Below the pieces are notes generated by a model, which worked only from the letters and a program-made list of their open reading frames with translations, was not told the DNA's origin and did not search any database. Of a stretch of DNA of 64,000 nucleotides, positions 34,039 through 58,990 are shown piece by piece. The position numbers were made by a program, and so were the translations under genes. Each line of letters begins with the position of its first letter. Positions within the stretch are counted from its first letter, which is position 1. Source of the stretch: Escherichia coli (lineage in GTDB: Bacteria > Pseudomonadota > Gammaproteobacteria > Enterobacterales > Enterobacteriaceae); NCBI RefSeq assembly GCF_030013205.1, contig NZ_CP122648.1; one strand, 5' to 3'.

Positions 34039-35925
34039 ATGTCAACCGGATTACGTTTCACACTGGAAGTGGACGGCCTGCCGCCGGATGCTTTTGCGGT
34101 GGTTTCCTTTCATCTGAACCAGTCACTCTCTTCGCTCTTTTCCCTCGATCTCTCCCTGGTCAGCCAGCAGTTTCTCTCCCTTGAATTTGCGCAGGTGCTG
34201 GACAAAATGGCCTACCTGACGATATGGCAGGGCGATGAAGTACAGCGCCGGGTGAAAGGCGTGGTGACCTGGTTTGAACTCGGGGAGAACGACAAAAACC
34301 AGATGCTGTACAGCATGAAGGTGCACCCGCCGCTGTGGCGTGCCGGTCTGCGCCAGAACTTCCGTATCTTCCAGAACGAGGACATCAAAAGCATCCTCGG
34401 CACGATGTTGCAGGAAAACGGGGTGACCGAATGGAGTCCGCTGTTCAGCGAGCCGCATCCTTCCCGTGAGTTTTGTGTCCAGTACGGTGAGACTGATTAC
34501 GATTTCCTGTGCCGGATGGCGGCGGAGGAAGGCATCTTCTTTTATGAGGAGCATGCTTACAAAAGTACCGACCAGAGCCTGGTGCTGTGCGACACAGTCC
34601 GCCATCTGCCCGAATCTTTTGAAATCCCATGGAACCCGAACACCCGTACCGAGGTGAGCACCCTCTGCATCAGCCAGTTCCGCTACAGCGCACAAATCCG
34701 CCCTTCTTCCGTGGTGACCAAAGACTACACCTTTAAACGCCCCGGCTGGGCCGGACGTTTTGAACAGGAAGGCCAGCACCAGGACTACCAGCGCACGCAG
34801 TATGAAGTGTATGACTACCCCGGACGTTTCAAGGGTGCCCACGGGCAGAACTTTGCCCGCTGGCAGATGGACGGCTGGCGAAACAATGCAGAAACCGCGC
34901 GGGGAATGAGTCGTTCGCCGGAGATATGGCCGGGACGACGAATTGTGCTGACGGGGCATCCGCAGGCGAACCTGAACCGGGAATGGCAGGTGGTGGCAAG
35001 TGAACTGCACGGCGAACAGCCACAGGCGGTGCCAGGACGGCAGGGAGCGGGGACGGCGCTGGAGAACCATTTTGCGGTGATCCCGGCAGACAGAACATGG
35101 CGACCACAGCCGTTGCTGAAACCGCTGGTCGACGGCCCGCAGAGCGCTGTCGTGACAGGACCGGCAGGCGAGGAAATCTTCTGCGACGAACATGGTCGCG
35201 TGCGGGTGAAGTTCAACTGGGACCGTTATAACCCGGCAGACCAAGACAGTTCGTGCTGGATCCGTGTGGCACAGGCGTGGGCAGGCACCGGTTTTGGCCA
35301 CCTGGCGATACCACGTGTGGGTCAGGAAGTCATTGTGGACTTCCTCAACGGCGATCCGGACCAGCCGATCATTATGGGGCGCACCTACCACCAGGAAAAC
35401 CGCCCCCCCGGCAGCCTGCCGGGAACAAAGACGCAGATGACCATCCGCTCCAAAACGTACATGGGCAGCGGATTTAATGAGCTGAAGTTTGATGATGCGA
35501 CAGGGAGAGAACAGGTCTACATCCACGCGCAGAAGAACATGGATACCGAAGTGCTCAACGACCGTACCACCACCGTAAAACACGATCACCGCGAAACCGT
35601 AAAAAATGACCAGACGGTCACGATCCAGGAAGGTAACCGCCTTCTTACGGTGGAAAAAGGCCACAAGATCACCGGAGTACTGAAAGGGTCTTTATCTGAG
35701 GATGTCTTTCAGGACAGAGGCACGATTGCCGGTTCGGTGCATGTTGACGCTGTAAACAATGGTGGCGAAGGCGACGGTATACAGGCTTATACGGCGATTA
35801 AGGAAATTTTGCTGGCCGTGGAGGAAAGCAAAATTGCGCTGACGCCGGATGGCATTCAGCTACAGGTCGGGGAATCGACGGTACCGGATCACAGGTGTCA
35901 GTCACACCGACGGGATCCGGCTTAA
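34039..35925 (+). CDS. vgrG: VgrG (Rhs-element Vgr protein / T6SS spike), 3' end replaced out of frame at a deletion junction near 35880
   Basis: 628-aa ORF with gp27/gp5-like VgrG sequence (…GRVRVKFNWDRYNPADQDSSCWIRVAQAWAG…IALTPDGIQLQVGESTV) ending in an unrelated 15-aa tail PDHRCQSHRRDPA. Confidence 0.8.
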   Translation: MSTGLRFTLEVDGLPPDAFAVVSFHLNQSLSSLFSLDLSLVSQQFLSLEFAQVLDKMAYLTIWQGDEVQRRVKGVVTWFELGENDKNQMLYSMKVHPPLWRAGLRQNFRIFQNEDIKSILGTMLQENGVTEWSPLFSEPHPSREFCVQYGETDYDFLCRMAAEEGIFFYEEHAYKSTDQSLVLCDTVRHLPESFEIPWNPNTRTEVSTLCISQFRYSAQIRPSSVVTKDYTFKRPGWAGRFEQEGQHQDYQRTQYEVYDYPGRFKGAHGQNFARWQMDGWRNNAETARGMSRSPEIWPGRRIVLTGHPQANLNREWQVVASELHGEQPQAVPGRQGAGTALENHFAVIPADRTWRPQPLLKPLVDGPQSAVVTGPAGEEIFCDEHGRVRVKFNWDRYNPADQDSSCWIRVAQAWAGTGFGHLAIPRVGQEVIVDFLNGDPDQPIIMGRTYHQENRPPGSLPGTKTQMTIRSKTYMGSGFNELKFDDATGREQVYIHAQKNMDTEVLNDRTTTVKHDHRETVKNDQTVTIQEGNRLLTVEKGHKITGVLKGSLSEDVFQDRGTIAGSVHVDAVNNGGEGDGIQAYTAIKEILLAVEESKIALTPDGIQLQVGESTVPDHRCQSHRRDPA

Positions 35926-38900
35926 ACTGACGTACCACGCCAGCGGCTACCTGAAAGCCATTCACCGCACGGATAACGGCATACAGACGCTGGCGACCTA
36001 CGAACAGGATGCGCGGGGGCGGCTGACAGAAGCGGATGCGCGGCTGGACTACCACCTGTTTTATGAGTACGACGCTGCGGACCGGATCATCCGCTGGTCC
36101 GATAACGACCAGACGTGGAGCCGTTTCACCTACGATGAACAGGGCCGGTGCGTGAATGTCACCGGGGCGGAGGGCTATTACAACGCCACGCTGGACTATG
36201 GTGACGGCTGCACCACCGTGACGGACGGCAAGGGCATTCACCGTTATTACTATGATCCTGACGGCAATATTCTGCGGGAAGCAGCGCCGGACGGCAGCAC
36301 CACCATGTATGAATGGGATGAATTCCATCACCTGCTGGCCCGTCACTCCCCTGCCGGGCGGGTGGAGAAATTTGAATACAACGCCGCACACGGTCAGTTA
36401 AGCCGTTACACGGCGGCAGACGGCGCGGAGTGGCAGTACCGCTATGATGAGCGCGGCCTGCTCAGCAACATCACCGACCCTGCCGGGCAGACGTGGACAC
36501 AGCAGTGTGATGAACGCGGCCTGCCGGTAAGTCTGGTGTCGCCACAGGGCGAAGAGACCCGGCTGGCATACACCGCTCAGGGGCTGCTGTCGGGAATATT
36601 CCGCCAGGATGAACGGCGTCTGGGCATAGAGTACGACCACCACAACCGGCCGGAAACACTCACCGACGTGATGGGCCGTGAACACCACACCGAATACAGC
36701 GGTCACGACCTGCCGGTGAAGATGCGCGGCCCCGGCGGTCAGTCAGTGCGGTTACAGTGGCAGCAGCACCATAAACTGAGCGGCATTGAACGTGCTGGAA
36801 CCGGCGCGGAAGGATTCCGCTACGACCGCCACGGCAACCTGCTGGCCTGGACGGACGGCAACGGCGTTGTCTGGACAATGGAATACGGCCCGTTTGATTT
36901 GCCGGTGGCGCGAACGGACGGTGAAGGCCACCGCTGGCAGTACCGCTACGATAAAGACACGCTGCAACTGACAGAAGTCATTAACCCGCAGGGTGAGTCA
37001 TATCTTTATGTTCTGGATAACTGCGGCCGGGTGACGGAAGAGCATGACTGGGGCGGCGTGGTCTGGCGTTACCGCTATGACGCCGATGGCCTGTGTACCG
37101 CCAGGGTCAACGGCCTGGAGGAAACCATCCTCTACAGCCGGGACGCCGCAGGCCGCCTGGCAGAAGTCATCACGCCGGAAGGCAAAACGCAGTATGCGTA
37201 TGACAAATCCGGCAGGCTTACGGGTATCTTCAGCCCGGACGGCACATCACAGCGCACCGGCTATGACGAACGCGGGCGGGTGAATGTCACCACTCAGGGC
37301 CGACGGGCCATTGAATACCACCACCCCGATGAACACACCGTCATCCGCTGTATCCTGCCACCGGAAGATGAACGCGACAGACACCCCGGTGAATCCCTGC
37401 TGAAAACCACGTACCGCTACAACGCCGCCGGAGAACTGACGGAGGTTATCCTGCCGGGGGATGAGACGCTGACGTTCAGCCGTGATGAGGCAGGACGTGA
37501 AGTGCTCCGGCACAGTAACCGGGGTTTTGCCTGTGAACAGGGCTGGAATGCAGCCGGCCAGTCTGTCAGCCAGCGCGCCGGATTTTTCCCGGAAGAAGCC
37601 ACATGGGGCGGGCTGGTTCCGTCACTGGCGCGGGAATACCGTTATGACAGCGCGGGCAATGTGTCGGCTGTCACCAGCCGGGAAGATTACGGACGGGAAA
37701 CACGGCGGGAATACCGGCTGGACCGGAACGGCCAGGTCACGGCGGTGACAGCCTCAGGCACCGGGCTGGGCTATGGCGAAGGCGATGAGTCCTATGGCTA
37801 TGACAGCTGCGGCTACCTGAAGGCGCAGTCTGCGGGCTGGCACCGGATAAGTGAAGAGACTGACCAGTATGCCGGAGGCCACCGGCTGAAACAGGCCGGA
37901 AACACGCAGTATGACTATGACGCCGCAGGCCGGATGGTCAGCCGCACCAGACACCGTGACGGCTATCGCCCGGAAACAGAGCGGTTCCGGTGGGACAGCC
38001 GTGACCAGCTGACCGGGTATTGCAGCGCACAGGGTGAGCAGTGGGAATACCGCCACGACGCCAGCGGCAGACGAACAGAGAAACGCTGCGACCGGAAGAA
38101 AATCCGCTTCACGTATCTGTGGGACGGCGACAGTATTGCGGAAATCCGGGAATACCGCGATGATAAACTGTACAGCGTACGGCACCTGGTGTTTAACGGC
38201 TTTGAGCTGATAAGCCAGCAGTTCAGCCGGGTACGGCAGGCGCATCCGTCGGTGGCCCCGCAGTGGGTGACACGGACGAATCATGCGGTGAGCGACCTGA
38301 CGGGCCGTCCGCTGATGCTCTTTAACAGTGAAGGTAAAACCGTCTGGCGACCGGGACAGACCAGCCTGTGGGGGCTGGCACTCAGCCTGCCCGCAGACAC
38401 CGGCTACCCGGACCCGCGCGGGGAACTGGACCCGGAAGCCGACCCCGGCCTGCTGTATGCGGGACAGTGGCAGGATGCAGAATCCGGGCTGTGCTATAAC
38501 CGGTTCCGGTATTACGAGCCGGAAACCGGGATGTACCTGGTGAGTGATCCGCTGGGGTTGCTGGGGGGTGAGCAGACTTACCGGTATGTGCCAAATCCGT
38601 GTGGGTGGGTTGATCCGCTGGGATTGGCTGCAAGTTCTAAAATCAGCAGTTTGATGGACTATATTGGCGATGGTCGTCGTGTTAGTGGGCATACGGGTTT
38701 CCTGGATGGGGTTCGTTTATCACGTAGTCAAATAAACAATATTGCTAAAGAAATGGAGAAGCTAGGAATTAAAGTAATAAGGAAAGCAGATAAATATTTG
38801 CCACCAAATGCTAGGGCAGCTTTTGATTATGGCCTTCGCAATATTTATCTTAGGAAAAATGCCACCTTATATGAGGTGTATCATGAAGTGATTCATGCTA

Positions 38901-39079
38901 AGCAATTTGCGAAAATTGGACGAGAAGCATACGAAGCACTAGGACGTTTATCTAGGGAGGAACACGTTCTAAATGAAATATTAAAAAGTAAAAATTTATT
39001 CAATGAAGCGGAAATAGCTCATGCCATAAAATATGTTGAGGGATTGAGAGAAAAATTCATGATGGGACTAATAAATTGA
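35849..39079 (+). CDS. Rhs protein remnant: YD-repeat core (5'-truncated, no PAAR/N-terminal region) plus a 150-aa variable C-terminal toxin domain
   Basis: 1076-aa ORF rich in YD repeats, core-end motif YVPNPCGWVDPLGL at about 38585-38626, then a low-GC C-terminal tail containing HEVIH; the only ATG is a fortuitous one inside vgrG-derived sequence. Confidence 0.8.
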   Translation: MAFSYRSGNRRYRITGVSHTDGIRLKLTYHASGYLKAIHRTDNGIQTLATYEQDARGRLTEADARLDYHLFYEYDAADRIIRWSDNDQTWSRFTYDEQGRCVNVTGAEGYYNATLDYGDGCTTVTDGKGIHRYYYDPDGNILREAAPDGSTTMYEWDEFHHLLARHSPAGRVEKFEYNAAHGQLSRYTAADGAEWQYRYDERGLLSNITDPAGQTWTQQCDERGLPVSLVSPQGEETRLAYTAQGLLSGIFRQDERRLGIEYDHHNRPETLTDVMGREHHTEYSGHDLPVKMRGPGGQSVRLQWQQHHKLSGIERAGTGAEGFRYDRHGNLLAWTDGNGVVWTMEYGPFDLPVARTDGEGHRWQYRYDKDTLQLTEVINPQGESYLYVLDNCGRVTEEHDWGGVVWRYRYDADGLCTARVNGLEETILYSRDAAGRLAEVITPEGKTQYAYDKSGRLTGIFSPDGTSQRTGYDERGRVNVTTQGRRAIEYHHPDEHTVIRCILPPEDERDRHPGESLLKTTYRYNAAGELTEVILPGDETLTFSRDEAGREVLRHSNRGFACEQGWNAAGQSVSQRAGFFPEEATWGGLVPSLAREYRYDSAGNVSAVTSREDYGRETRREYRLDRNGQVTAVTASGTGLGYGEGDESYGYDSCGYLKAQSAGWHRISEETDQYAGGHRLKQAGNTQYDYDAAGRMVSRTRHRDGYRPETERFRWDSRDQLTGYCSAQGEQWEYRHDASGRRTEKRCDRKKIRFTYLWDGDSIAEIREYRDDKLYSVRHLVFNGFELISQQFSRVRQAHPSVAPQWVTRTNHAVSDLTGRPLMLFNSEGKTVWRPGQTSLWGLALSLPADTGYPDPRGELDPEADPGLLYAGQWQDAESGLCYNRFRYYEPETGMYLVSDPLGLLGGEQTYRYVPNPCGWVDPLGLAASSKISSLMDYIGDGRRVSGHTGFLDGVRLSRSQINNIAKEMEKLGIKVIRKADKYLPPNARAAFDYGLRNIYLRKNATLYEVYHEVIHAKQFAKIGREAYEALGRLSREEHVLNEILKSKNLFNEAEIAHAIKYVEGLREKFMMGLIN

Positions 39080-53452: not shown

Positions 53453-54018
53453 GCGTTAGTTTCTCCACAACCAGAAGCAATCGACGCCACGACGCCCGGA
53501 GCTGCACACTCGCGGGCGTCATTACTTTCTGAAATGCAAAAAATTTTGTAGACAAGTGCTGCATGCTCCTGCAGCTTCGAAATTGAGAGATACAGCTCGT
53601 CGTTAATTGCTGTCTTCTCATGCGGTTCCACTACACCGTCTTCGATTGCTGAACGAATCTGTTTTGAATAACTGCCGATCTGTTCAATGACTTCCAGCAG
53701 ACGCTGGTTAATATCGGCGTTGTCCACATCCTCGACGTCAGGAAGAGACACAAAGACGCCATTTGCAGACTGCGCCACAGCATCAGCAATGAAGTGAGTG
53801 CCACCAGCACGCTGTAAAACCATTGCCCATCCCAGCGGGAAAATCTGATCGCCATCTGCACGAAGGCGGTTGAATAAAGCGTTTTCTGTTACATCGAGCC
53901 AGTCAGCCGCTTCAGCGTAACCACCCGGCAACGCCGCGATAGTTTTTCTGACAGCTTTCACGTACCACTCAGGCTGTTTTTCTATTTTCCAGTGATGCTT
54001 ACCCACGATTAGCCTCAT
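53449..54018 (-). CDS. phage regulatory protein in the cII position (CII-like, function not verified)
   Basis: 189-codon ORF directly downstream of the cro-like gene on the same strand; assignment by gene order, family not confirmed. Confidence 0.5.
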
Positions 54019-54049
54019 CGTTCTGTGGTTAAAAATTGAAAGTGTTCTG

Positions 54050-54250
54050 CTAATCTTTCGGATAGATATCCGGTCTTAAGTCAGATTTCGTAATTGCACC
54101 TGACGTGCATTGCTCAAGTTTTTTAGCCAGCACAAAACTGGCTTTTTTATAGCCATTGAAAACCAGCCGTAAGTAGCCAGGTGTTGAGCCAACTTTTCCG
54201 GCCAACTCGCCCTGCTGTTCTTTGGTTAAAGAGTCCCAATACGCTTTCAT
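54050..54250 (-). CDS. Cro-like HTH repressor
   Basis: 66-aa product MKAYWDSLTKEQQGELAGKVGSTPGYLRLVFNGYKKASF… with GGAGG 10 nt upstream; divergent from cI across a palindromic operator region. Confidence 0.7.
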   Translation of the reverse strand: MKAYWDSLTKEQQGELAGKVGSTPGYLRLVFNGYKKASFVLAKKLEQCTSGAITKSDLRPDIYPKD

Positions 54251-54340
54251 ACAATATGTACCTCCGATGTACATATCACATGATTAAAATGAACCTTCAA
54301 GATACTTGTACCTTAACGGTACAAGGGTTTTAATTTCGTT
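54251..54340. promoter_or_regulatory. OR-like operator/promoter region between the cro-like gene and cI
   Basis: Two palindromes sharing a TGTACC half-site: atatgtac-ctccgat-gtacatat (54254-54276) and cttgtacc-ttaac-ggtacaag (54306-54326). Confidence 0.65.
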
Positions 54341-55015
54341 ATGAAAACAATCCATGACATCCGGCGGTCTAACGCCAGAAAACTGAGAGATGGTGTTGGC
54401 GGGAATTCTTCCTTTGCCACTATGATTGATCGCGAGCCAACCCAGACCAGCAGGTTTATGGGAGATGGTGCTACTAAAAATATCGGTGACAGCATGGCAC
54501 GACACATCGAAAAATGTTTCGACCTGCCTGTCGGATGGCTCGATCAAGAACACCAGACAACGAACATCACAAAAAAACCTGATGTTTCAATCACTAATAA
54601 ACAAATCACATTAGTCCCTGTCATATCATGGGTACAGGCCGGAGCATGGAAAGAAGTTGGATATTCTGAGGTTGATTTGAGCACAGCAGAAACGTATCCC
54701 TGCCCTGTACCCTGTGGGGAAATGACTTATATCCTGCGGGTGATAGGTGATTCAATGATTGATGAGTACCGCCCGGGAGACATGATTTTTGTCGATCCTG
54801 AAGTACCTGCCTGCCACGGTGACGACGTTATTGCATTGATGCACGATACAGGTGAAACCACCTTCAAAAGGTTGATAGAAGATGGGACACAGCGTTATCT
54901 CAAAGCGTTAAACCCAAACTGGCCTGAGCCTTACATTAAGATCAACGGTAATTGCTCTATAATTGGAACTGTGATTTTCTCAGGAAAACCAAGAAGATAC
55001 AAAATCAAAGCCTAA
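54341..55015 (+). CDS. CI-like phage repressor (N-terminal HTH, C-terminal LexA/S24-type autopeptidase)
   Basis: 224-aa ORF with the S24 serine motif (VIGDSM) and a downstream lysine (TFKRL). Confidence 0.85.
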   Translation: MKTIHDIRRSNARKLRDGVGGNSSFATMIDREPTQTSRFMGDGATKNIGDSMARHIEKCFDLPVGWLDQEHQTTNITKKPDVSITNKQITLVPVISWVQAGAWKEVGYSEVDLSTAETYPCPVPCGEMTYILRVIGDSMIDEYRPGDMIFVDPEVPACHGDDVIALMHDTGETTFKRLIEDGTQRYLKALNPNWPEPYIKINGNCSIIGTVIFSGKPRRYKIKA

Positions 55016-55026
55016 TCAATGTTTAT

Positions 55027-55050
55027 GAACCTGCTTCGGCAGGTTTTTTT
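55027..55050 (+). terminator. intrinsic terminator after cI
   Basis: gaacctgc-ttcg-gcaggtt followed by ttttttt. Confidence 0.75.
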
Positions 55051-55054
55051 ATAC

Positions 55055-55095
55055 TTGACAATGTACCTTTGAGATACATAATGTACCCAAGAGAA
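55055..55095 (+). promoter_or_regulatory. pL-like sigma70 promoter with OL-like operator half-sites
   Basis: TTGACA (55055-55060), 16 bp, CATAAT (55077-55082); two AATGTACC motifs overlap it, matching the TGTACC half-site of the OR palindromes. Confidence 0.55.
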
Positions 55096-55229
55096 ACAAC
55101 AAACAGGCAGGACCCCCACGAAGTATCCGCCTGGGGCATATGAAGTTCAGGATGATTCGTTAGCAACAAAAAAGCGCCCTACAGGACGCTTAGCTCTTTA
55201 ACAATCTGGATATCCACAACAGTAGTAAT

Positions 55230-55721
55230 CTACAGATTGCCGTTAAGTTTTCTGGACAACTCCTCAATGGATGGAGGCGATACGTAATCCGGATTTTTAT
55301 TCATCAGAAACTTATTTTCACAGTGGAGGCACCTGCTTTTATGAAAAAGCTCATCTTCGCTAACCGGGAATGGTTGAAGTATCGATACTATCTTTTGTCC
55401 AAAACATTTTGGGCAAAGATGCATGGTTATGCTGCCACCGTTCACGATTACCTCCTTCGAGTATACAAAAGTACCCGACTCAAGTTGGTTAAGGATATAG
55501 CCTTCCGTCTGAGCCTCAAAGTTTTCGAATTCTGCAATTTTAGCTTTGAGAGAAGCATTTATTTCTTGATAAGAGCCCACCAGTTCAACGAGAGACACGC
55601 ATTCGCGCTGAATAGACGCAAGCTTTGAGTTCAGCTCACCAATAGCCGCATTTACTTCAGCTTGAGTTTTTGCCTCGTTCATTAGTTTTGCAATCTGGGC
55701 TGTTTCACGAATAGCCGTCAT
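55230..55721 (-). CDS. prophage moron: coiled-coil protein with C-terminal C4 zinc ribbon, function unknown
   Basis: 163 aa from MTAIRETAQIAKLMNEAKTQAEVNAAIGELNSKL…; CPKCF…(18 aa)…CLHCE; AT-rich; start uncertain (alternative GTG at about 55754). Confidence 0.55.
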   Translation of the reverse strand: MTAIRETAQIAKLMNEAKTQAEVNAAIGELNSKLASIQRECVSLVELVGSYQEINASLKAKIAEFENFEAQTEGYILNQLESGTFVYSKEVIVNGGSITMHLCPKCFGQKIVSILQPFPVSEDELFHKSRCLHCENKFLMNKNPDYVSPPSIEELSRKLNGNL

Positions 55722-55789
55722 TGCTGCCGTTAATTCAGCGATCACATTGAATACTCTTATTGTTGTTGGGGATATCCAGATTAACCGAA

Positions 55790-56214
55790 TCCTTGTTGTT
55801 GGGGAATAACCAGGTCCACCTCGCCTGATGTGGCTAAAAGCAGGCACATAACAGCTAAGTATTTTCAACCAGAGAGAATCCTTAGCGTTGTGGTGAATGC
55901 GGCTCAGCGCACGCGGGTTAAGGTTGAGGCTGACAGTCGACCTTCTGTGGATACCCACCCGCCTGGTGTGCAACCTTCGCCAGGCACCGGGAGGCACCCG
56001 GCACCACAACTTTATGCTGTGTGTAGTCCTGGCGGTACCAGCTTGTACCCTTGCTTCCGGCTGGTACCGTCCTTTTTACAAAACAGAGAAGAGCATCACC
56101 GGACGACGGGCTCATAACCCAATCCATCCGGGCGGCGGCCACCACAGGTGTTCTTCTCTGTTTTGTGGAGAAACTAATCGGCCTTGCAGGGTCGATATGA
56201 TGAGGAGCAGCAAA
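55790..56214 (+). other. GC-rich, highly structured non-coding region (candidate structured RNA or recombination remnant)
   Basis: Nested inverted repeats: gcctgg/ccaggc, ccggg/cccgg, ggtaccagc/gctggtacc (9 bp), and caaaacagagaaga…tcttctctgttttg (about 15-17 bp); ORFs here lack plausible starts. Confidence 0.4.
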
Positions 56215-56577
56215 ATGGCTAGCGAACGCAGTACTGATGTGCAGGCATTTATCGGGGAGCTGGACGGCGGCGTATTTGAAACCAAAATCGGCGCAGTTCT
56301 CAGTGAAGTCGCTTCCGGTGTGATGAACACGAAAACCAAAGGTAAGGTCTCACTCAACCTGGAAATCGAACCATTTGATGAGAACCGTGTGAAAATCAAA
56401 CACAAACTCTCATATATTCGCCCGACTAACCGCGGGAAAATTTCCGAAGAAGACACCACCGAAACGCCGATGTATGTCAATCGCGGTGGTCGCCTGACTA
56501 TTCTGCAGGAAGACCAGGGACAATTACTGACTCTTGCCGGTGAACCTGACGGAAAACTCCGCGCAGCAGGTCGTTAA
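56215..56577 (+). CDS. yfdP: YfdP-like prophage protein (CPS-53 homologue as I recall)
   Basis: 120-aa product MASERSTDVQAFIGELDGGVFETKIGAVLSEV… with GAGGAG 9 nt upstream of the ATG. Confidence 0.7.
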   Translation: MASERSTDVQAFIGELDGGVFETKIGAVLSEVASGVMNTKTKGKVSLNLEIEPFDENRVKIKHKLSYIRPTNRGKISEEDTTETPMYVNRGGRLTILQEDQGQLLTLAGEPDGKLRAAGR

Positions 56578-56642
56578 TATCGTTCGTAATAAACTGATTA
56601 TTTATCTCATCACTGAATATCTTTATATAGTGAGGACTTATT

Positions 56643-57467
56643 ATGTCTCAGAACTTAGACGCAACCGCAATTAATCAAATCCATGCCCTTATTTCTGCTC
56701 AGGGTGTTAATGAAATTATCAGTAAGATTGGTGCCGATGCTGTGGCATTGCCTGAGAATTTCCGCATTCATGATCTGGAAAAATTTAATTTAAATCGCTT
56801 CCGTTTCCGTGGTGCACTTTCCACTGCCAGCATCGATGATTTTACCCGTTATTCTAAAGATCTTGCAGATGAAGGCACCCGCTGCTTTATCGATGCCGAT
56901 AATATGCGTGCCGTCAGTGTGCTTAACCTGGGTACTATTGATGAGCCAGGTCACGCAGATAACACTGCCACTCTCAAACTGAAAAAGACAGCACCGTTCT
57001 CTGCTCTGTTGTCTGTTAACGGCGAGCGTAACTCCCAGAAGTCACTGGCAGAATGGATCGAAGACTGGGCCGACTACCTTGTGGGCTTTGATGCTAATGG
57101 TGACGCCATTCAAGCAACAAAAGCGGCTGCGGCAGTCCGTAAAATCACGATTGAAGCAAACCAGACCGCTGATTTTGAAGATAATGACTTCAGCGGCAAA
57201 CGCTCCCTGATGGAGTCTGTCGAAGCGAAGACCAAAGACATTATGCCAGTGGCATTTGAATTTAAATGCGTTCCGTTTGAAGGTCTGAAAGAACGTCCGT
57301 TTAAATTACGCCTCAGCATTATCACTGGCGATCGTCCTGTACTGGTTCTGCGCATTATTCAGCTGGAAGCGGTGCAGGAAGAAATGGCTAACGAATTTCG
57401 TGATCTGCTTGTTGAGAAATTCAAAGACAGCAAAGTAGAAACCTTTATTGGTACTTTCACCGCCTGA
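56643..57467 (+). CDS. yfdQ: YfdQ-like prophage protein (unknown function)
   Basis: 274-aa [33 protein letters not shown]…. Confidence 0.7.
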
Positions 57468-57594
57468 TTTCATTACTGCAAATGCCCCTGCGGGGGCATT
57501 TATGGAAACGTAATTAACTCAATAATCACCGGATGGTGAGGGCTTCCTTTTACCAGAATTCAGCGCGGTGCAGTGCATATACGTGGAGAACAAA

Positions 57595-58656
57595 ATGTCA
57601 TTTATTAAAACTTTTTCCGGGAAGCATTTTTATTATGACAAGATAAATAAAGACGACATCGATATTAACGATATCGCGGTTTCCCTTTCAAATATCTGTC
57701 GCTTTGCCGGTCATCTTTCGCACTTCTACAGCGTCGCCCAACATGCGGTTCTTTGCAGCCAGCTGGTGCCGCAGGAATTTGCTTTTGAAGCGTTAATGCA
57801 TGATGCAACAGAAGCGTATTGCCAGGACATTCCCGCACCACTGAAACGCCTTCTTCCTGACTATAAACGGATGGAAGAAAAAATAGACGCCGTAATCCGT
57901 GAGAAATACGGGTTATCAACTCAGACAAAGGCAAAGCATCTTGCCATGATAAAGGCCATTCTCCGTGCTGCAGAACGCGACTGGAAGTGGCTGGAAAAAG
58001 CGCCTGTCATCAAGATACCAGCGGTCAGAAACAAGCGAGTCAGATGGCTGGAAAAGGAGGAAGCAAAACGCCTTATTGATGAGTGCCCCGAACCACTGAA
58101 ATCTGTCGTCAAGTTTGCGCTGGCAACTGGTCTGAGAAAGTCGAACATCATAAATCTGGAATGGCAACAAATCGACATGCAGCGACGAGTTGCCTGGGTG
58201 AATCCAGAAGAGAGCAAATCAAACCGCGCCATTGGTGTGGCGCTGAACGATACCGCCTGTAAAGTGTTGCGTGATCAAATAGGCAAGCATCACAAATGGG
58301 TGTTTGTACATACCAAGGCGGCTAAGCGAGCAGATGGAACATCAACGCCTGCGGTCAGGAAGATGCGCATCGACAGCAAGACATCATGGCTATCAGCTTG
58401 TCGTCGTGCAGGAATTGAAGATTTCCGTTTCCATGACCTCAGACACACCTGGGCAAGCTGGCTGATCCAGTCAGGCGTCCCATTATCTGTGCTTCAGGAA
58501 ATGGGCGGATGGGAGTCCATAGAAATGGTTCGTAGGTATGCTCACCTTGCGCCTAATCATTTGACAGAGCATGCAAGGAAAATAGACGACATTTTTGGTG
58601 ATAATGTCCCAAATATGTCCCACTGTGGAATTATGGAGGATATAAAGAAGGCGTAA
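57595..58656 (+). CDS. chimeric ORF: HD-domain phosphohydrolase N-terminus (YfdR-like) fused in frame to a tyrosine-recombinase catalytic domain (IntD-like)
   Basis: N-terminal 115 aa [15 protein letters not shown]…AGHLSHFY…[14 protein letters not shown] (HD motifs); the rest (…[19 protein letters not shown]…[10 protein letters not shown]…VRRYAHL…) is an integrase C-terminal domain with R/H-x-x-R/Y residues; ends 15 bp from argU. Confidence 0.8.
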
Positions 58657-58671
58657 CTGATTGAATTGTAA

Positions 58672-58748
58672 TGGCGCGCCCTGCAGGATTCGAACCTGCG
58701 GCCCACGACTTAGAAGGTCGTTGCTCTATCCAACTGAGCTAAGGGCGC
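58672..58748 (-). tRNA. argU: tRNA-Arg (anticodon UCU), argU
   Basis: Reverse complement reads GCGCCCTTAGCTCAGTTGGATAGAGCAACGACCTTCTAAGTCGTGGGCCGCAGGTTCGAATCCTGCAGGGCGCGCCA (77 nt, encoded CCA). Confidence 0.95.
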
Positions 58749-58990
58749 GTTGATACCGCAATGCGGTGTAATCGCGTGAATTATACGGTCAACCCTTGCT
58801 GAGTCAATGGCTTTTGATCTGGTTGCTGAACAAGTGAACGACCGCGTCTGATTTTCTGATTTATTTCGCTATAGCGGCAAACAAACGCACATCGCTGCGC
58901 GTCTGAATCAAGAAAACCCGTATTTTCATGTATCAAAGTACAATTTCCCGCCCTAACGGAAAATTGTCCGATCCAATGAGACTGGTAACT

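What the first reader, a model, noticed from the sequence alone, without database searches (positions are those of the whole stretch)
54251..55095. Intact-looking immunity region: cro-like and cI genes with palindromic operators and a pL-like promoter
Divergent cro-like (54050-54250) and cI (54341-55015) genes flank two palindromes sharing a TGTACC half-site. Two further AATGTACC motifs overlap a strong promoter-like sequence (TTGACA, 16 bp, CATAAT) just after the cI terminator, resembling OL/pL. The S24 autopeptidase motifs in CI look intact, so the remnant may still be repressor-controlled and SOS-inducible for transcription even though it cannot excise.
Basis: seen in the sequence. Interest (0 to 1): 0.35.

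Follow-up and report, generated by a model that had tools for sequence, protein, structure and literature searches.

The report
e14/SfV-type prophage immunity switch remnant
This is the well-known repressor/anti-repressor control region of an e14/SfV-type lambda-like prophage, left behind in a 7-kb remnant next to the argU tRNA gene; it is ordinary, although its left-hand promoter feeds into a conserved structured RNA that no database or genome record I could search names.

Summary
Divergent croE/ymfT (54050-54250, -) and cohE/ymfK (54341-55015, +) flank two exact TGTAC-N7-GTACA palindromes. A terminator, a TTGACA-16-CATAAT promoter and two more sites follow cohE. The region is 98.3% identical to K-12 prophage e14. 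Its repressor protein is 100% identical to the CI of UV-inducible Shigella phage SfIV, with the Ala-Gly site, Ser138 and Lys176 invariant. About 165 related loci give a clean footprint: half-sites and promoter hexamers are fixed and operator spacers vary freely. A heteroimmune relative replaces repressor and motifs together. So this is a lambda-style immunity switch that is already annotated and known. Three refinements apply. A weak third OR site exists. The cI mRNA is probably leaderless. PR carries a -11 A-to-G change found in only 7 of 5426 E. coli genomes, so "intact" is overstated for the rightward arm. Just outside the finding, the pL transcript starts with a about 62-nt RNA element (55099-55160). 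It has a 23-nt invariant core and two covarying helices, is absent from Rfam and is not detectably related to HK022 put. A boxA follows it. This element is the only potentially novel item.

The parts
54341..55015 (+). cohE/ymfK: CI-type repressor, 224 aa. N-terminal DNA-binding part is residues 1-about 75. C-terminal S24 autopeptidase domain has cleavage site A100-G101, Ser138 and Lys176.
   Evidence: Pfam Peptidase_S24, E 1.5e-26. Alignment to lambda CI C-terminal domain. A100, G101, S138 and K176 are invariant in 49 distinct homologues. Same RefSeq protein (WP_000848748.1) as K-12 YmfK. 100% identical to SfIV CI.
54050..54250 (-). croE/ymfT: Cro-like 66-aa helix-turn-helix protein, first gene of the rightward (PR) operon.
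   Evidence: Annotated ymfT in the identical K_EC180 record. PHROG 35, E 3e-15. Protein identical to SfIV Cro.
54256..54274 (.). OR-a operator, ATGTACCTCCGATGTACAT. It covers the PR -10 edge, the start site and the croE Shine-Dalgarno sequence (GGAGG on the - strand).
   Evidence: Exact TGTAC-N7-GTACA match. Matrix score 17.4. Half-sites carry about 2 bits across 69 distinct relatives.
54289..54307 (.). OR-m, a weak middle site, ATGAACCTTCAAGATACTT. The left half, ATGAACC, is invariant. It overlaps the PR -35.
   Evidence: Fifth-best matrix hit in the window, 11.2. ATGAACC carries 2.0 bits, and some relatives have ATGTACC instead. Its role is inferred.
54306..54324 (.). OR-b operator, TTGTACCTTAACGGTACAA, a perfect palindrome. 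It overlaps the PRM -35 and spacer.
   Evidence: Exact match. Matrix score 25.8. Half-sites carry 2.0 bits and the 5-bp centre 0.4-0.8 bits.
54273..54300 (-). PR promoter: -35 TTGAAG (54295-54300), 16-nt spacer, -10 TGATAT (54273-54278). Relatives have TAATAT or CATAAT, so the window carries -11 A-to-G (C at 54277 on the + strand).
   Evidence: Read from the sequence and the alignment of relatives. Variant counts are 7 genomes against 110+956. The promoter assignment is inferred; the consensus scan did not list it.
54306..54341 (+). PRM promoter: -35 TTGTAC (54306-54311), 17-nt spacer, -10 TTTAAT (54329-54334). The predicted start is at the A of the cohE ATG (54341), giving a leaderless mRNA.
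   Evidence: A -10-like hexamer is conserved (1.7-2.0 bits) at a fixed 6-7 nt before the ATG in 84 distinct upstream regions, with variable sequence on either side and no Shine-Dalgarno sequence. Inferred, by analogy with lambda PRM.
55027..55053 (+). Intrinsic terminator of cohE: GAACCTGCTTCGGCAGGTT followed by a T-run.
   Evidence: Terminator scan. Conserved in relatives directly before the pL -35.
55055..55082 (+). pL promoter, TTGACA-16-CATAAT. Predicted start at about 55089.
   Evidence: 11 of 12 consensus positions. Conserved with few exceptions across about 100 distinct downstream regions.
55061..55079 (.). OL1 operator, ATGTACCTTTGAGATACAT, in the pL spacer and overlapping the -10.
   Evidence: One-mismatch match. 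Matrix score 25.9. Half-sites are fixed and the centre is variable in relatives.
55081..55099 (.). OL2 operator, ATGTACCCAAGAGAAACAA, over the pL start site. The right half is degenerate.
   Evidence: Matrix score 15.1. The left half is conserved; the right half is G-N-A/T-A-C in relatives and GATACA in phage EPP-1.
55099..55160 (+). Structured RNA element at the 5' end of the pL transcript. Closing helix P1 is 55099-55103 with 55156-55160. The core is 55106-55128. Hairpin P2 is 55128-55134 with 55147-55154.
   Evidence: Covariation: 98.9% of cells paired, 9 of 15 pairs changed on both sides, score 0.471 against 0.006-0.113 for slid controls. One copy per phage and none in the HK022 immunity/put region. 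No Rfam match. The window copy has G-to-C at 55114 and G-to-T at 55126 in the core.
55172..55204 (+). Hairpin (55172-55191), which on the - strand is the terminator of the convergent 171-aa gene. It is followed on the + strand by boxA, GCTCTTTAACAA (55193-55204).
   Evidence: Terminator scan, - strand. Perfect match to the boxA consensus GYTCTTTAANA (consensus from PMC5725501). The cassette recurs in relatives.

Best explanation
The region is the immunity (lysis/lysogeny) switch of an e14/SfV/SfIV-type lambdoid prophage. It survives in a roughly 7-kb remnant at the argU tRNA-Arg gene of a porcine E. coli lineage.

Proposed mechanism (inferred unless stated):
- CohE (YmfK), a CI-type repressor, binds as a dimer to 17-19-bp operators with consensus ATGTACC-N5-GGTACAT.
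- At OR, the site OR-a blocks PR (croE-ymfL-ymfM).
- The site OR-b overlaps the -35 and spacer of PRM and gives negative autoregulation of a probably leaderless cohE mRNA.
- A weak middle site lies over the PR -35.
- At OL, two sites cover the spacer, the -10 and the start of a near-consensus pL promoter placed directly after the cohE terminator.
- DNA damage would activate RecA, which would stimulate CohE self-cleavage at Ala100-Gly101 by Ser138/Lys176 and release both promoters.

State of this copy (shown): repressor, Cro, PRM, pL and all operators match functional phages.

State of this copy (inferred): PR has lost the key -11 adenine, so rightward induction is probably weak.

The leftward transcript runs through a slightly mutated conserved leader RNA, a boxA, the antisense of a convergent 171-aa gene, then yfdP, yfdQ and a truncated integrase.
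For: Identity:
- 98.3% DNA identity to K-12 e14 over window 53900-55164; annotated ymfK/ymfT/ymfL.
- The repressor is 100% identical to the CI of SfIV, Ayreon and PhiR49, and 99.6% identical to that of SfV.
- SfIV is UV-induced, forms plaques and gives immune lysogens (PMC3851460).

Cleavage apparatus:
- S24 domain.
- AG site, Ser and Lys align with lambda CI and are invariant in 49 homologues.

Operators:
- Two exact palindromes lie in 90 bp.
- The five best matrix hits in 64 kb all lie here.
- Footprint across about 165 loci with 73-100% identical CI: half-sites and promoter hexamers carry about 2 bits, operator centres 0.4-0.8 bits.
- Heteroimmune strain EC29 keeps ymfL and the pL leader but swaps the repressor, Cro and all TGTACC sites for ACTAAG-type repeats at the same places.

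Expression in K-12:
- Both arms (ymfT-ymfL-ymfM... and ymfJ-ymfH-xisE-intE) form one co-regulated 'YmfT' iModulon. It is most active in fur mutants and under peroxide stress (PMC10602906).
- The gene group a later study chose under that heading (PMC12133099) also lists sulA and recN.
- YmfK is listed as an SOS-sensitive repressor (PMC8249747).
- The e14 division inhibitor is SOS-inducible but not LexA-controlled (bioRxiv 10.1101/2020.11.19.390815).
Against: - No binding, cleavage or transcription data exist for this copy.
- The N-terminal domain has no Pfam match. It has only weak similarity to the phage SPC32H Rep N-terminal domain (E 4.7e-4).
- The AlphaFold model was unusable, with mean pLDDT 38.
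- PR and PRM were assigned by conservation and geometry. The consensus promoter scan found only pL.
- OR-m abuts OR-b (17 bp centre to centre), which is unlike lambda. Its role is uncertain.
- The PR -11 change may make the rightward arm non-inducible.
Confidence: 0.85

Rival explanations
1. The module is a silent relic in this strain. The repressor may still be made, but induction no longer produces meaningful transcription. PR has lost its -11 adenine, and the leftward transcript is stopped because its leader RNA is damaged and most early genes are deleted.
For: The C at 54277 turns TAATAT into TGATAT at a column that carries 1.9 bits in relatives. The variant occurs in only 7 porcine isolates, against 1066 genomes with T. 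There are two substitutions in the otherwise invariant leader core. The surroundings include a truncated integrase, a frameshifted gene and tail-fibre fragments.
Against: pL, OL1, OL2, PRM, the repressor and Cro are unchanged relative to functional phages. The effect of the PR change is predicted, not measured. The ymfL and ymfM reading frames are still open.
Confidence: 0.25
2. CohE is not inactivated by RecA-stimulated self-cleavage. Instead, an antirepressor inactivates it, as reported for the Rep repressor of Salmonella phage SPC32H, the closest solved relative of its N-terminal domain.
For: The best structural-database match for residues 1-75 is SPC32H Rep, 5d50. That Rep is controlled by an antirepressor is my recollection of the literature, not something tested here.
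Against: The Ala-Gly site, Ser138 and Lys176 are invariant in all 49 homologues, which would not be expected if cleavage were irrelevant. No antirepressor-like gene is annotated in the remnant. SfIV is UV-inducible and the e14 functions are SOS-inducible without LexA control.
Confidence: 0.08
3. The palindromes are RNA hairpins or terminators, or chance repeats, rather than protein-binding operators.
For: The scan lists 54305-54325 as a terminator-like hairpin followed by GGTTTTAATT. An invariant stem with a variable loop is also what a hairpin would show.
Against: The same half-site recurs at imperfect palindromes that cannot form good hairpins: OR-a, OL1 (GATACA) and OL2. All of them sit on promoter elements. 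The stems never covary; they are invariant. The motif is replaced wholesale when the repressor type changes. Two exact 10-specified-base matches within 90 bp are far beyond chance.
Confidence: 0.03

Closest known systems
Immunity region of E. coli K-12 cryptic prophage e14 (cohE/ymfK, croE/ymfT, ymfL, ymfM)
   Same: 98.3% DNA identity over window 53900-55164. Identical repressor protein. Same operators, PRM, pL and leader RNA.
   Different: e14 sits at icd and continues from the pL leader straight into ymfJ-ymfH-xisE-intE. Here the module sits at argU. Downstream of pL it has a convergent 171-aa gene, a boxA, yfdP and yfdQ, as in SfIV/SfV. The K-12 PR -10 is TAATAT; here it is TGATAT.
cI/cro region of Shigella serotype-converting phages SfIV and SfV (functional, UV-inducible)
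   Same: CI is 100% (SfIV) or 99.6% (SfV) identical and SfIV Cro is identical. Same gene order: cro, cI, convergent gene, yfdP-like, yfdQ-like.
   Different: These are complete phages with replication, lysis, morphogenesis, xis and int genes. The window keeps only about 7 kb. The OL1 centre differs (TTT against CAC), as do two OR positions, 54267 and 54277.
Phage lambda OR/OL switch (CI, Cro, PR, PRM, pL)
   Same: Divergent cI/cro. 17-bp two-fold symmetric operators on the promoters at both OR and OL. S24 repressor with Ala-Gly, Ser and Lys. Probable leaderless cI mRNA from PRM. The cI-proximal site is placed like OR3 and the cro-proximal site like OR1.
   Different: No detectable sequence similarity in the DNA-binding domain or the operators. 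OR has two strong sites 50 bp apart plus a weak site abutting OR-b, rather than three sites about 24 bp apart. OL has two sites. No N gene has been reported for this phage group (PMC3851460).
HK022 put antiterminator RNA (putL/putR)
   Same: The leader element lies at the very 5' end of the pL transcript of lambdoid phages that lack N, and it is of similar size, about 62 nt against about 70 nt.
   Different: A covariance-model search of the HK022 immunity and put region gives no hit, and blastn of the phage collection lists no HK022 record. The architecture differs: one closing helix, a large invariant internal loop and one hairpin, rather than two side-by-side stem-loops. It has no -10-like NANNAT motif. 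Only one copy exists per phage, and none was found in the PR operon.

Membership tests
LexA/CI-type S24 self-cleaving repressor | C-terminal Peptidase S24 domain | tested here: met
   PF00717, E 1.5e-26, residues 93-212.
LexA/CI-type S24 self-cleaving repressor | Ser/Lys catalytic dyad and Ala-Gly cleavage site | tested here: met
   VQA100-G101, GDS138M and TFK176RL align with lambda CI A111-G112, the GNSM serine motif and K192 (the position altered in 2ho0, cI101-229DM-K192A) (lambda residue numbers other than K192 are from my own knowledge). All are invariant in 49 distinct homologues.
LexA/CI-type S24 self-cleaving repressor | N-terminal helix-turn-helix DNA-binding domain | tested here: inconclusive
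   No Pfam match even at E 10. Weak matches to the SPC32H Rep N-terminal domain (E 4.7e-4) and to a phage CI N-terminal domain, 7nkv (E 0.05). PHROG repressor families match residues 1-92. The AlphaFold model predicts five helices but has pLDDT 38.
LexA/CI-type S24 self-cleaving repressor | RecA-stimulated cleavage on DNA damage | not testable with these tools
   Indirect only. The identical protein is the CI of UV-induced SfIV. e14 genes are SOS-inducible without LexA control.
Lambdoid immunity region (OR/OL switch) | Divergent repressor and cro genes separated by a short region with repeated symmetric operators overlapping two promoters | tested here: met
   90-bp spacer with two exact palindromes and one weak site. 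Conserved -35 and -10 elements for both directions.
Lambdoid immunity region (OR/OL switch) | Second operator cluster on an outward early promoter (OL/pL) beyond the repressor gene | tested here: met
   TTGACA-16-CATAAT with OL1 in the spacer and OL2 at the start site, conserved in about 100 distinct sequences.
Lambdoid immunity region (OR/OL switch) | Operator sequence specific to the repressor type (heteroimmunity) | tested here: met
   EC29 has a different LexA-family repressor and Cro, with ACTAAG-type repeats at OR and OL in place of TGTACC, between the same flanks.
Lambdoid immunity region (OR/OL switch) | Repressor actually binds these sites and controls the promoters | not testable with these tools
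   No binding data were found in the papers I could read. Mehta et al. 2004 was not held; the SfV genome paper was not looked up.
e14/SfV immunity type | Near-identity of cohE, croE and the operators to the type elements | tested here: met
   98.3% identity to K-12 e14. CI is identical to K-12 and SfIV.
HK022 put RNA | Sequence and structure similarity to putL/putR (two stem-loops, conserved 5' duplex, U28, G35) | tested here: not met
   Model R1 finds nothing in the HK022 immunity and put region. blastn of the phage collection finds no HK022 record. The helices shown by covariation differ from the put architecture described in PMC9378689.
HK022 put RNA | Promotes read-through of terminators in cis via RNA polymerase | not testable with these tools
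Only the position at the pL 5' end in N-less phages is suggestive.
boxA (Nus factor recruitment site) | Match to the consensus GYTCTTTAANA on the transcribed strand | tested here: met
   GCTCTTTAACA at 55193-55203 (+). The only other window match lies inside a 1076-aa ORF. Consensus from PMC5725501.
boxA (Nus factor recruitment site) | NusB/NusE binding and suppression of Rho termination | not testable with these tools
   Not tested.

The most novel reading that the evidence does not exclude
The about 62-nt element at the start of the pL transcript (window 55099-55160) is an undescribed cis-acting RNA of N-less lambdoid phages (e14, SfV, SfII, ST64B, ZF40, YeP1-3, mEp237 and others).

It has a 23-nt invariant core inside two covarying helices. 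The proposal is that it modifies the transcription elongation complex, as HK022 put does, or recruits a host factor. This would let early-left transcription pass terminators and Rho-sensitive untranslated stretches. In SfV-type phages it would be helped by the boxA that follows the convergent-gene cassette.
Probability: 0.3. Interest if true: 0.6.

Novelty: already known. Interest (0 to 1): 0.27.

Why it matters
The immunity region itself adds nothing new. It is the annotated cohE/croE module of e14/SfV-type phages, present in roughly a quarter of complete E. coli genomes.

It matters locally for three reasons.
- The remnant keeps a repressor that should confer immunity against SfV/SfIV/e14-type phages.
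- It keeps a possibly SOS-responsive promoter pair next to the division-inhibitor gene ymfM.
- The lineage-specific loss of the PR -11 adenine is a plausible example of a remnant being disarmed.

The wider value is in the by-product. The comparison gives a clean operator and promoter map for this immunity type. It also reveals a strongly covarying, unannotated leader RNA at pL, shared by many phages that have no N protein. This offers a testable lead on how such phages achieve early antitermination.

Tried and rejected
- **AlphaFold2 model of CohE.** Built from 49 homologues, it gave mean pLDDT 38. It was too poor for a fold search, so the N-terminal fold stays unconfirmed.
- **Pfam on residues 1-91.** Nothing was found even at E 10.
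- **Rfam at E up to 1 over 52500-58800.** Nothing fell on the immunity region or the leader.
- **Relation of the leader RNA to HK022 put.** I reconstructed putL from the HK022 sequence, and its numbering matches PMC9378689. The shared CAGGAUGA string lies in a loop in put and in a stem here. The covariance model finds no HK022 hit. Homology was therefore rejected.
- **Thermodynamic fold of the window's own leader.** It is unremarkable, z = 0.05. The evidence for structure comes only from covariation.
- **A short ORF in the leader (MKSRMIR).** It was rejected because neither the start nor the stop is conserved.
- **PADLOC on the neighbouring proteins.** Nothing above noise.
- **The second boxA match, at 38317.** It lies inside a long ORF and is taken as chance.
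- **Papers not held.** Mehta et al. 2004 (e14 analysis) and King et al. 2011 (new put RNAs) could not be read. I therefore could not check whether the operators or the leader RNA were already described there.
- **TGTACC alone.** It is not enriched enough to mean anything.
Full report
**1. What is in the sequence**

- croE/ymfT is 54050-54250 on the minus strand (66 aa).
- cohE/ymfK is 54341-55015 on the plus strand (224 aa).
- The 90-bp spacer holds two exact copies of TGTAC-N7-GTACA, at 54257-54273 and 54307-54323. These are the only exact copies in 64 kb.
- A one-mismatch copy at 55062-55078 sits in the spacer of the promoter-like sequence TTGACA-16-CATAAT (55055-55082, 11 of 12 consensus positions). 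That sequence follows a hairpin plus T-run at 55027-55046.
- The bare hexamer TGTACC is not informative: 26 found against 17.8 expected.

**2. Identity**

Window 53900-55300 is 100% identical to E. coli K_EC180. Over 53900-55164 it is 98.3% identical to K-12 prophage e14, where the genes are annotated ymfK, ymfT and ymfL. Window 41900-64000 differs from K_EC180 at one base, so that annotation can be transferred.

The element is a remnant of about 7 kb lying between an alpha/beta-hydrolase gene downstream of ompT and tRNA-Arg(TCT) at 58672-58748. It contains:
- tail-fibre-assembly fragments and a methyltransferase;
- a DUF4222 gene, then ymfL, ymfT and ymfK;
- a convergent 171-aa gene and a frameshifted gene;
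- yfdP, yfdQ and an integrase lacking its N-terminus.

Downstream of cohE the layout follows Shigella phages SfIV/SfV rather than K-12 e14.

**3. The repressor**

- CohE has a Peptidase_S24 domain, E 1.5e-26.
- It aligns with the lambda CI C-terminal domain so that VQA100-G101, S138 and K176 correspond to the lambda cleavage site and catalytic dyad.
- These four residues are invariant in 49 distinct homologues.
- The protein is 100% identical to the CI of SfIV, Ayreon and PhiR49/PhiR29. It is 99.6% identical to that of SfV and 2H10, and 98.7-99.1% identical to cdtI and Stx2c phages.
- SfIV was isolated by UV induction, forms plaques and gives lysogens resistant to SfIV (PMC3851460). The protein is therefore that of working, inducible phages.
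- The N-terminal domain is poorly characterised. It has no Pfam match, only weak similarity to the SPC32H Rep N-terminal domain, and an unusable AlphaFold model.

**4. Operators and promoters by comparison**

I collected about 165 loci encoding CI proteins 73-100% identical to CohE. In these loci the OR geometry is fixed in most loci (69 of 84 distinct upstream regions align without any shift).

Per-column information over 69 distinct OR sequences:
- About 2 bits for TGTACC/(G)TACA of OR-a.
- About 2 bits for CTTGTACC and GGTACA of OR-b.
- About 2 bits for ATGAACC and CAAG, where CAAG is the PR -35 read on the other strand.
- 1.7-2.0 bits for TTTAAT, 6 nt before the cohE ATG.
- Only 0.4-0.8 bits for the 5-bp centre of OR-b and for the sequence flanking TTTAAT.

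At OL, about 100 distinct sequences share one layout: T-run / TTGACA / ATGTACC-N5-G(A/G)TACATAAT / GTA(C/T)C-N5-G.(A/T)AC. The centres are again free to vary.

A matrix trained on OR-b and OL1 of the relatives ranks five window positions above everything else: 55061, 54306, 54256, 55081 and 54289.

A heteroimmune strain, EC29, keeps ymfL on one side and the pL leader on the other. It has a different LexA-family repressor and a different Cro. ACTAAG-type repeats replace every TGTACC site. This natural swap ties the motif to the repressor type.

**5. Proposed wiring (inferred)**

- **PR** (minus strand): -35 TTGAAG at 54295-54300 and -10 at 54273-54278, with the start near 54266. OR-a covers the -10 edge, the start and the croE ribosome-binding site.
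- **PRM** (plus strand): -35 TTGTAC at 54306-54311 and -10 TTTAAT at 54329-54334, with the start at the A of the ATG. This would give a leaderless mRNA, as for lambda cI.
- **OR-b** lies across the PRM -35 and spacer. It should act like lambda OR3, giving negative autoregulation and serving as the target for Cro.
- **The weak middle site** (54289-54307) overlaps the PR -35 and abuts OR-b. Its role is open.
- **pL** is covered by OL1 (spacer and -10) and OL2 (start site).

K-12 data fit a single repressor controlling both arms. The 'YmfT' iModulon holds 12 e14 genes and is most active in fur mutants and under peroxide stress (PMC10602906). The gene group a later study lists under that name spans both arms (ymfT-ymfL-ymfM... 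and ymfJ-ymfH-xisE-intE) and also includes sulA and recN (PMC12133099). The e14 division inhibitor is SOS-inducible but not LexA-controlled.

**6. How intact is this copy?**

Relative to SfIV and K-12, the OR region differs at two positions, both specific to the window: 54267 and 54277. The second turns the PR -10 from TAATAT into TGATAT, which removes the -11 adenine. From general knowledge of sigma-70 promoters, that base nucleates DNA opening.

The column is almost invariant in relatives, at 1.9 bits. The window's 32-mer occurs in 7 of 5426 complete E. coli genomes, all of them porcine isolates. The two T-containing versions occur in 110 and 956 genomes.

The rightward arm, which includes the division inhibitor ymfM, is therefore probably weakened. 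PRM, pL, the operators, CI and Cro are unchanged.

**7. Beyond the finding: the pL transcript**

The sequence from about 55099 to 55160 is conserved whatever gene follows it. It also occurs in phages of other immunity types: SfII, ST64B, ZF40, YeP1-3, mEp237, SPN3UB, phiNP and 118970_sal3. It is unannotated in nearly all of these records; a few mark a hypothetical-protein CDS over it.

An exact 23-nt core, GGCAGGACGCCCACGAAGTAGCC, retrieved at least 120 viral contigs, with one copy in each.

On 91 distinct sequences, a closing helix (columns 8-12 with 65-69) and a hairpin (columns 37-43 with 56-63) show the following:
- 98.9% of cells are paired.
- 9 of 15 pairs have changes on both sides.
- Whole-helix swaps occur, such as ACGAA/UUCGU to CCACC/GGUGG to UCAUC/GAUGA.
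- The covariation score is 0.471, against 0.006-0.113 when the partners are slid.

One caveat applies. That set was selected by the exact core, so core invariance there is by construction. In the earlier, more loosely selected set of 54 sequences, the core was still at least 90% conserved.

The element is not in Rfam. A covariance model built from it finds nothing in the HK022 immunity and put region. Its architecture differs from the put structure described in PMC9378689. The window's copy has two substitutions in the core, at 55114 and 55126.

About 30 nt further on, a hairpin at 55172-55191 serves on the minus strand as the terminator of the convergent 171-aa gene. It is followed on the plus strand by GCTCTTTAACAA, a perfect boxA.

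My reading is an inference. These phages are reported to lack an N protein, and the leader RNA and boxA may help pL transcription to cross terminators and the untranslated antisense stretch.

**8. Verdict**

The finding is real and correctly interpreted in outline. It is the already annotated and named immunity module of e14/SfV-type phages, so its novelty is nil and its interest is low.

The refinements are:
- a full operator and promoter map;
- a probable leaderless cI mRNA;
- a lineage-specific PR-down mutation.

The conserved pL leader RNA is the one item that may be new. I could not read the two papers most likely to have described it.

Noticed in passing
window 55099-55160 (+): A conserved structured RNA at the 5' end of the pL transcript. 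It has a 23-nt invariant core and two helices with extensive compensatory changes. It is present once per phage in many N-less lambdoid phages of different immunity types. It is absent from Rfam and is not detectably related to HK022 put. The window copy has two core substitutions.
   Followed up: yes
window 55172-55204: A two-way element. On the minus strand the hairpin plus T-run terminates the convergent 171-aa gene. On the plus strand the same hairpin is followed by a perfect boxA, GCTCTTTAACAA. This may protect pL transcripts from Rho while they cross the antisense of that gene. The cassette recurs in relatives that carry the convergent gene.
   Followed up: partly
window 54277: The PR -10 hexamer reads TGATAT instead of TAATAT (-11 A to G on the transcribed sense). 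The variant is found in only 7 of 5426 complete E. coli genomes, all porcine isolates, against 1066 with the usual base.
   Followed up: yes
window 55230-55745 (-): A convergent 171-aa gene between pL and the early-left genes, in the position of a lysogen-expressed 'moron'. It matches PHROG 1244 (unknown function) and has C-terminal CxxC pairs. It has no PADLOC or significant Pfam match.
   Followed up: partly
L169 (E. coli EC29) 700-1830, compared with window 53990-55165: A heteroimmune relative. Repressor, Cro, operators and promoters are replaced as one cassette. The boundaries lie near the end of ymfL and near the first bases of the pL transcript, and the leader RNA is retained.
   Followed up: partly
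window 53114-53452 (-) and 53094-53273 (-): The ymfM reading frame (112 aa; the SOS-inducible division inhibitor of e14) is open. It overlaps the annotated DUF4222 gene in another frame by 160 nt. ymfM is not annotated in either RefSeq record consulted.
   Followed up: no
window 52745-52944 (-): Rfam family IS009 (RF02111) matches at 133.7 bits, above its gathering score of 117. The match lies among the tail-fibre-assembly and helix-turn-helix pseudogene fragments.
   Followed up: no
window 55857-56080 (+): A sub-threshold Rfam match to sRNA STnc100: 42.4 bits against a gathering score of 47. It lies on the pL-transcribed strand and overlaps the frameshifted hypothetical gene upstream of yfdP.
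   Followed up: no
window 51700-51718 and 52749-52767: Two near-identical 19-mers, ATGTATCAACACG(A/G)TTCA, score next after the five operator sites with the operator matrix. They lie in the duplicated tail-fibre-assembly fragments that flank the methyltransferase gene, and are probably chance.
   Followed up: no
L167 (phage HK022) about 1620-1700 and 800-880: The HK022 OR and OL regions contain repeats with half-sites TGAAC/TGTAC, for example TGAACCATAAGTTCA. These resemble the TGTACC and ATGAACC half-sites here but have a shorter spacing.
   Followed up: no
window 38317-38327 (+): A second perfect match to the boxA consensus lies inside a 1076-aa ORF (35849-39079). It is taken as chance.
   Followed up: partly
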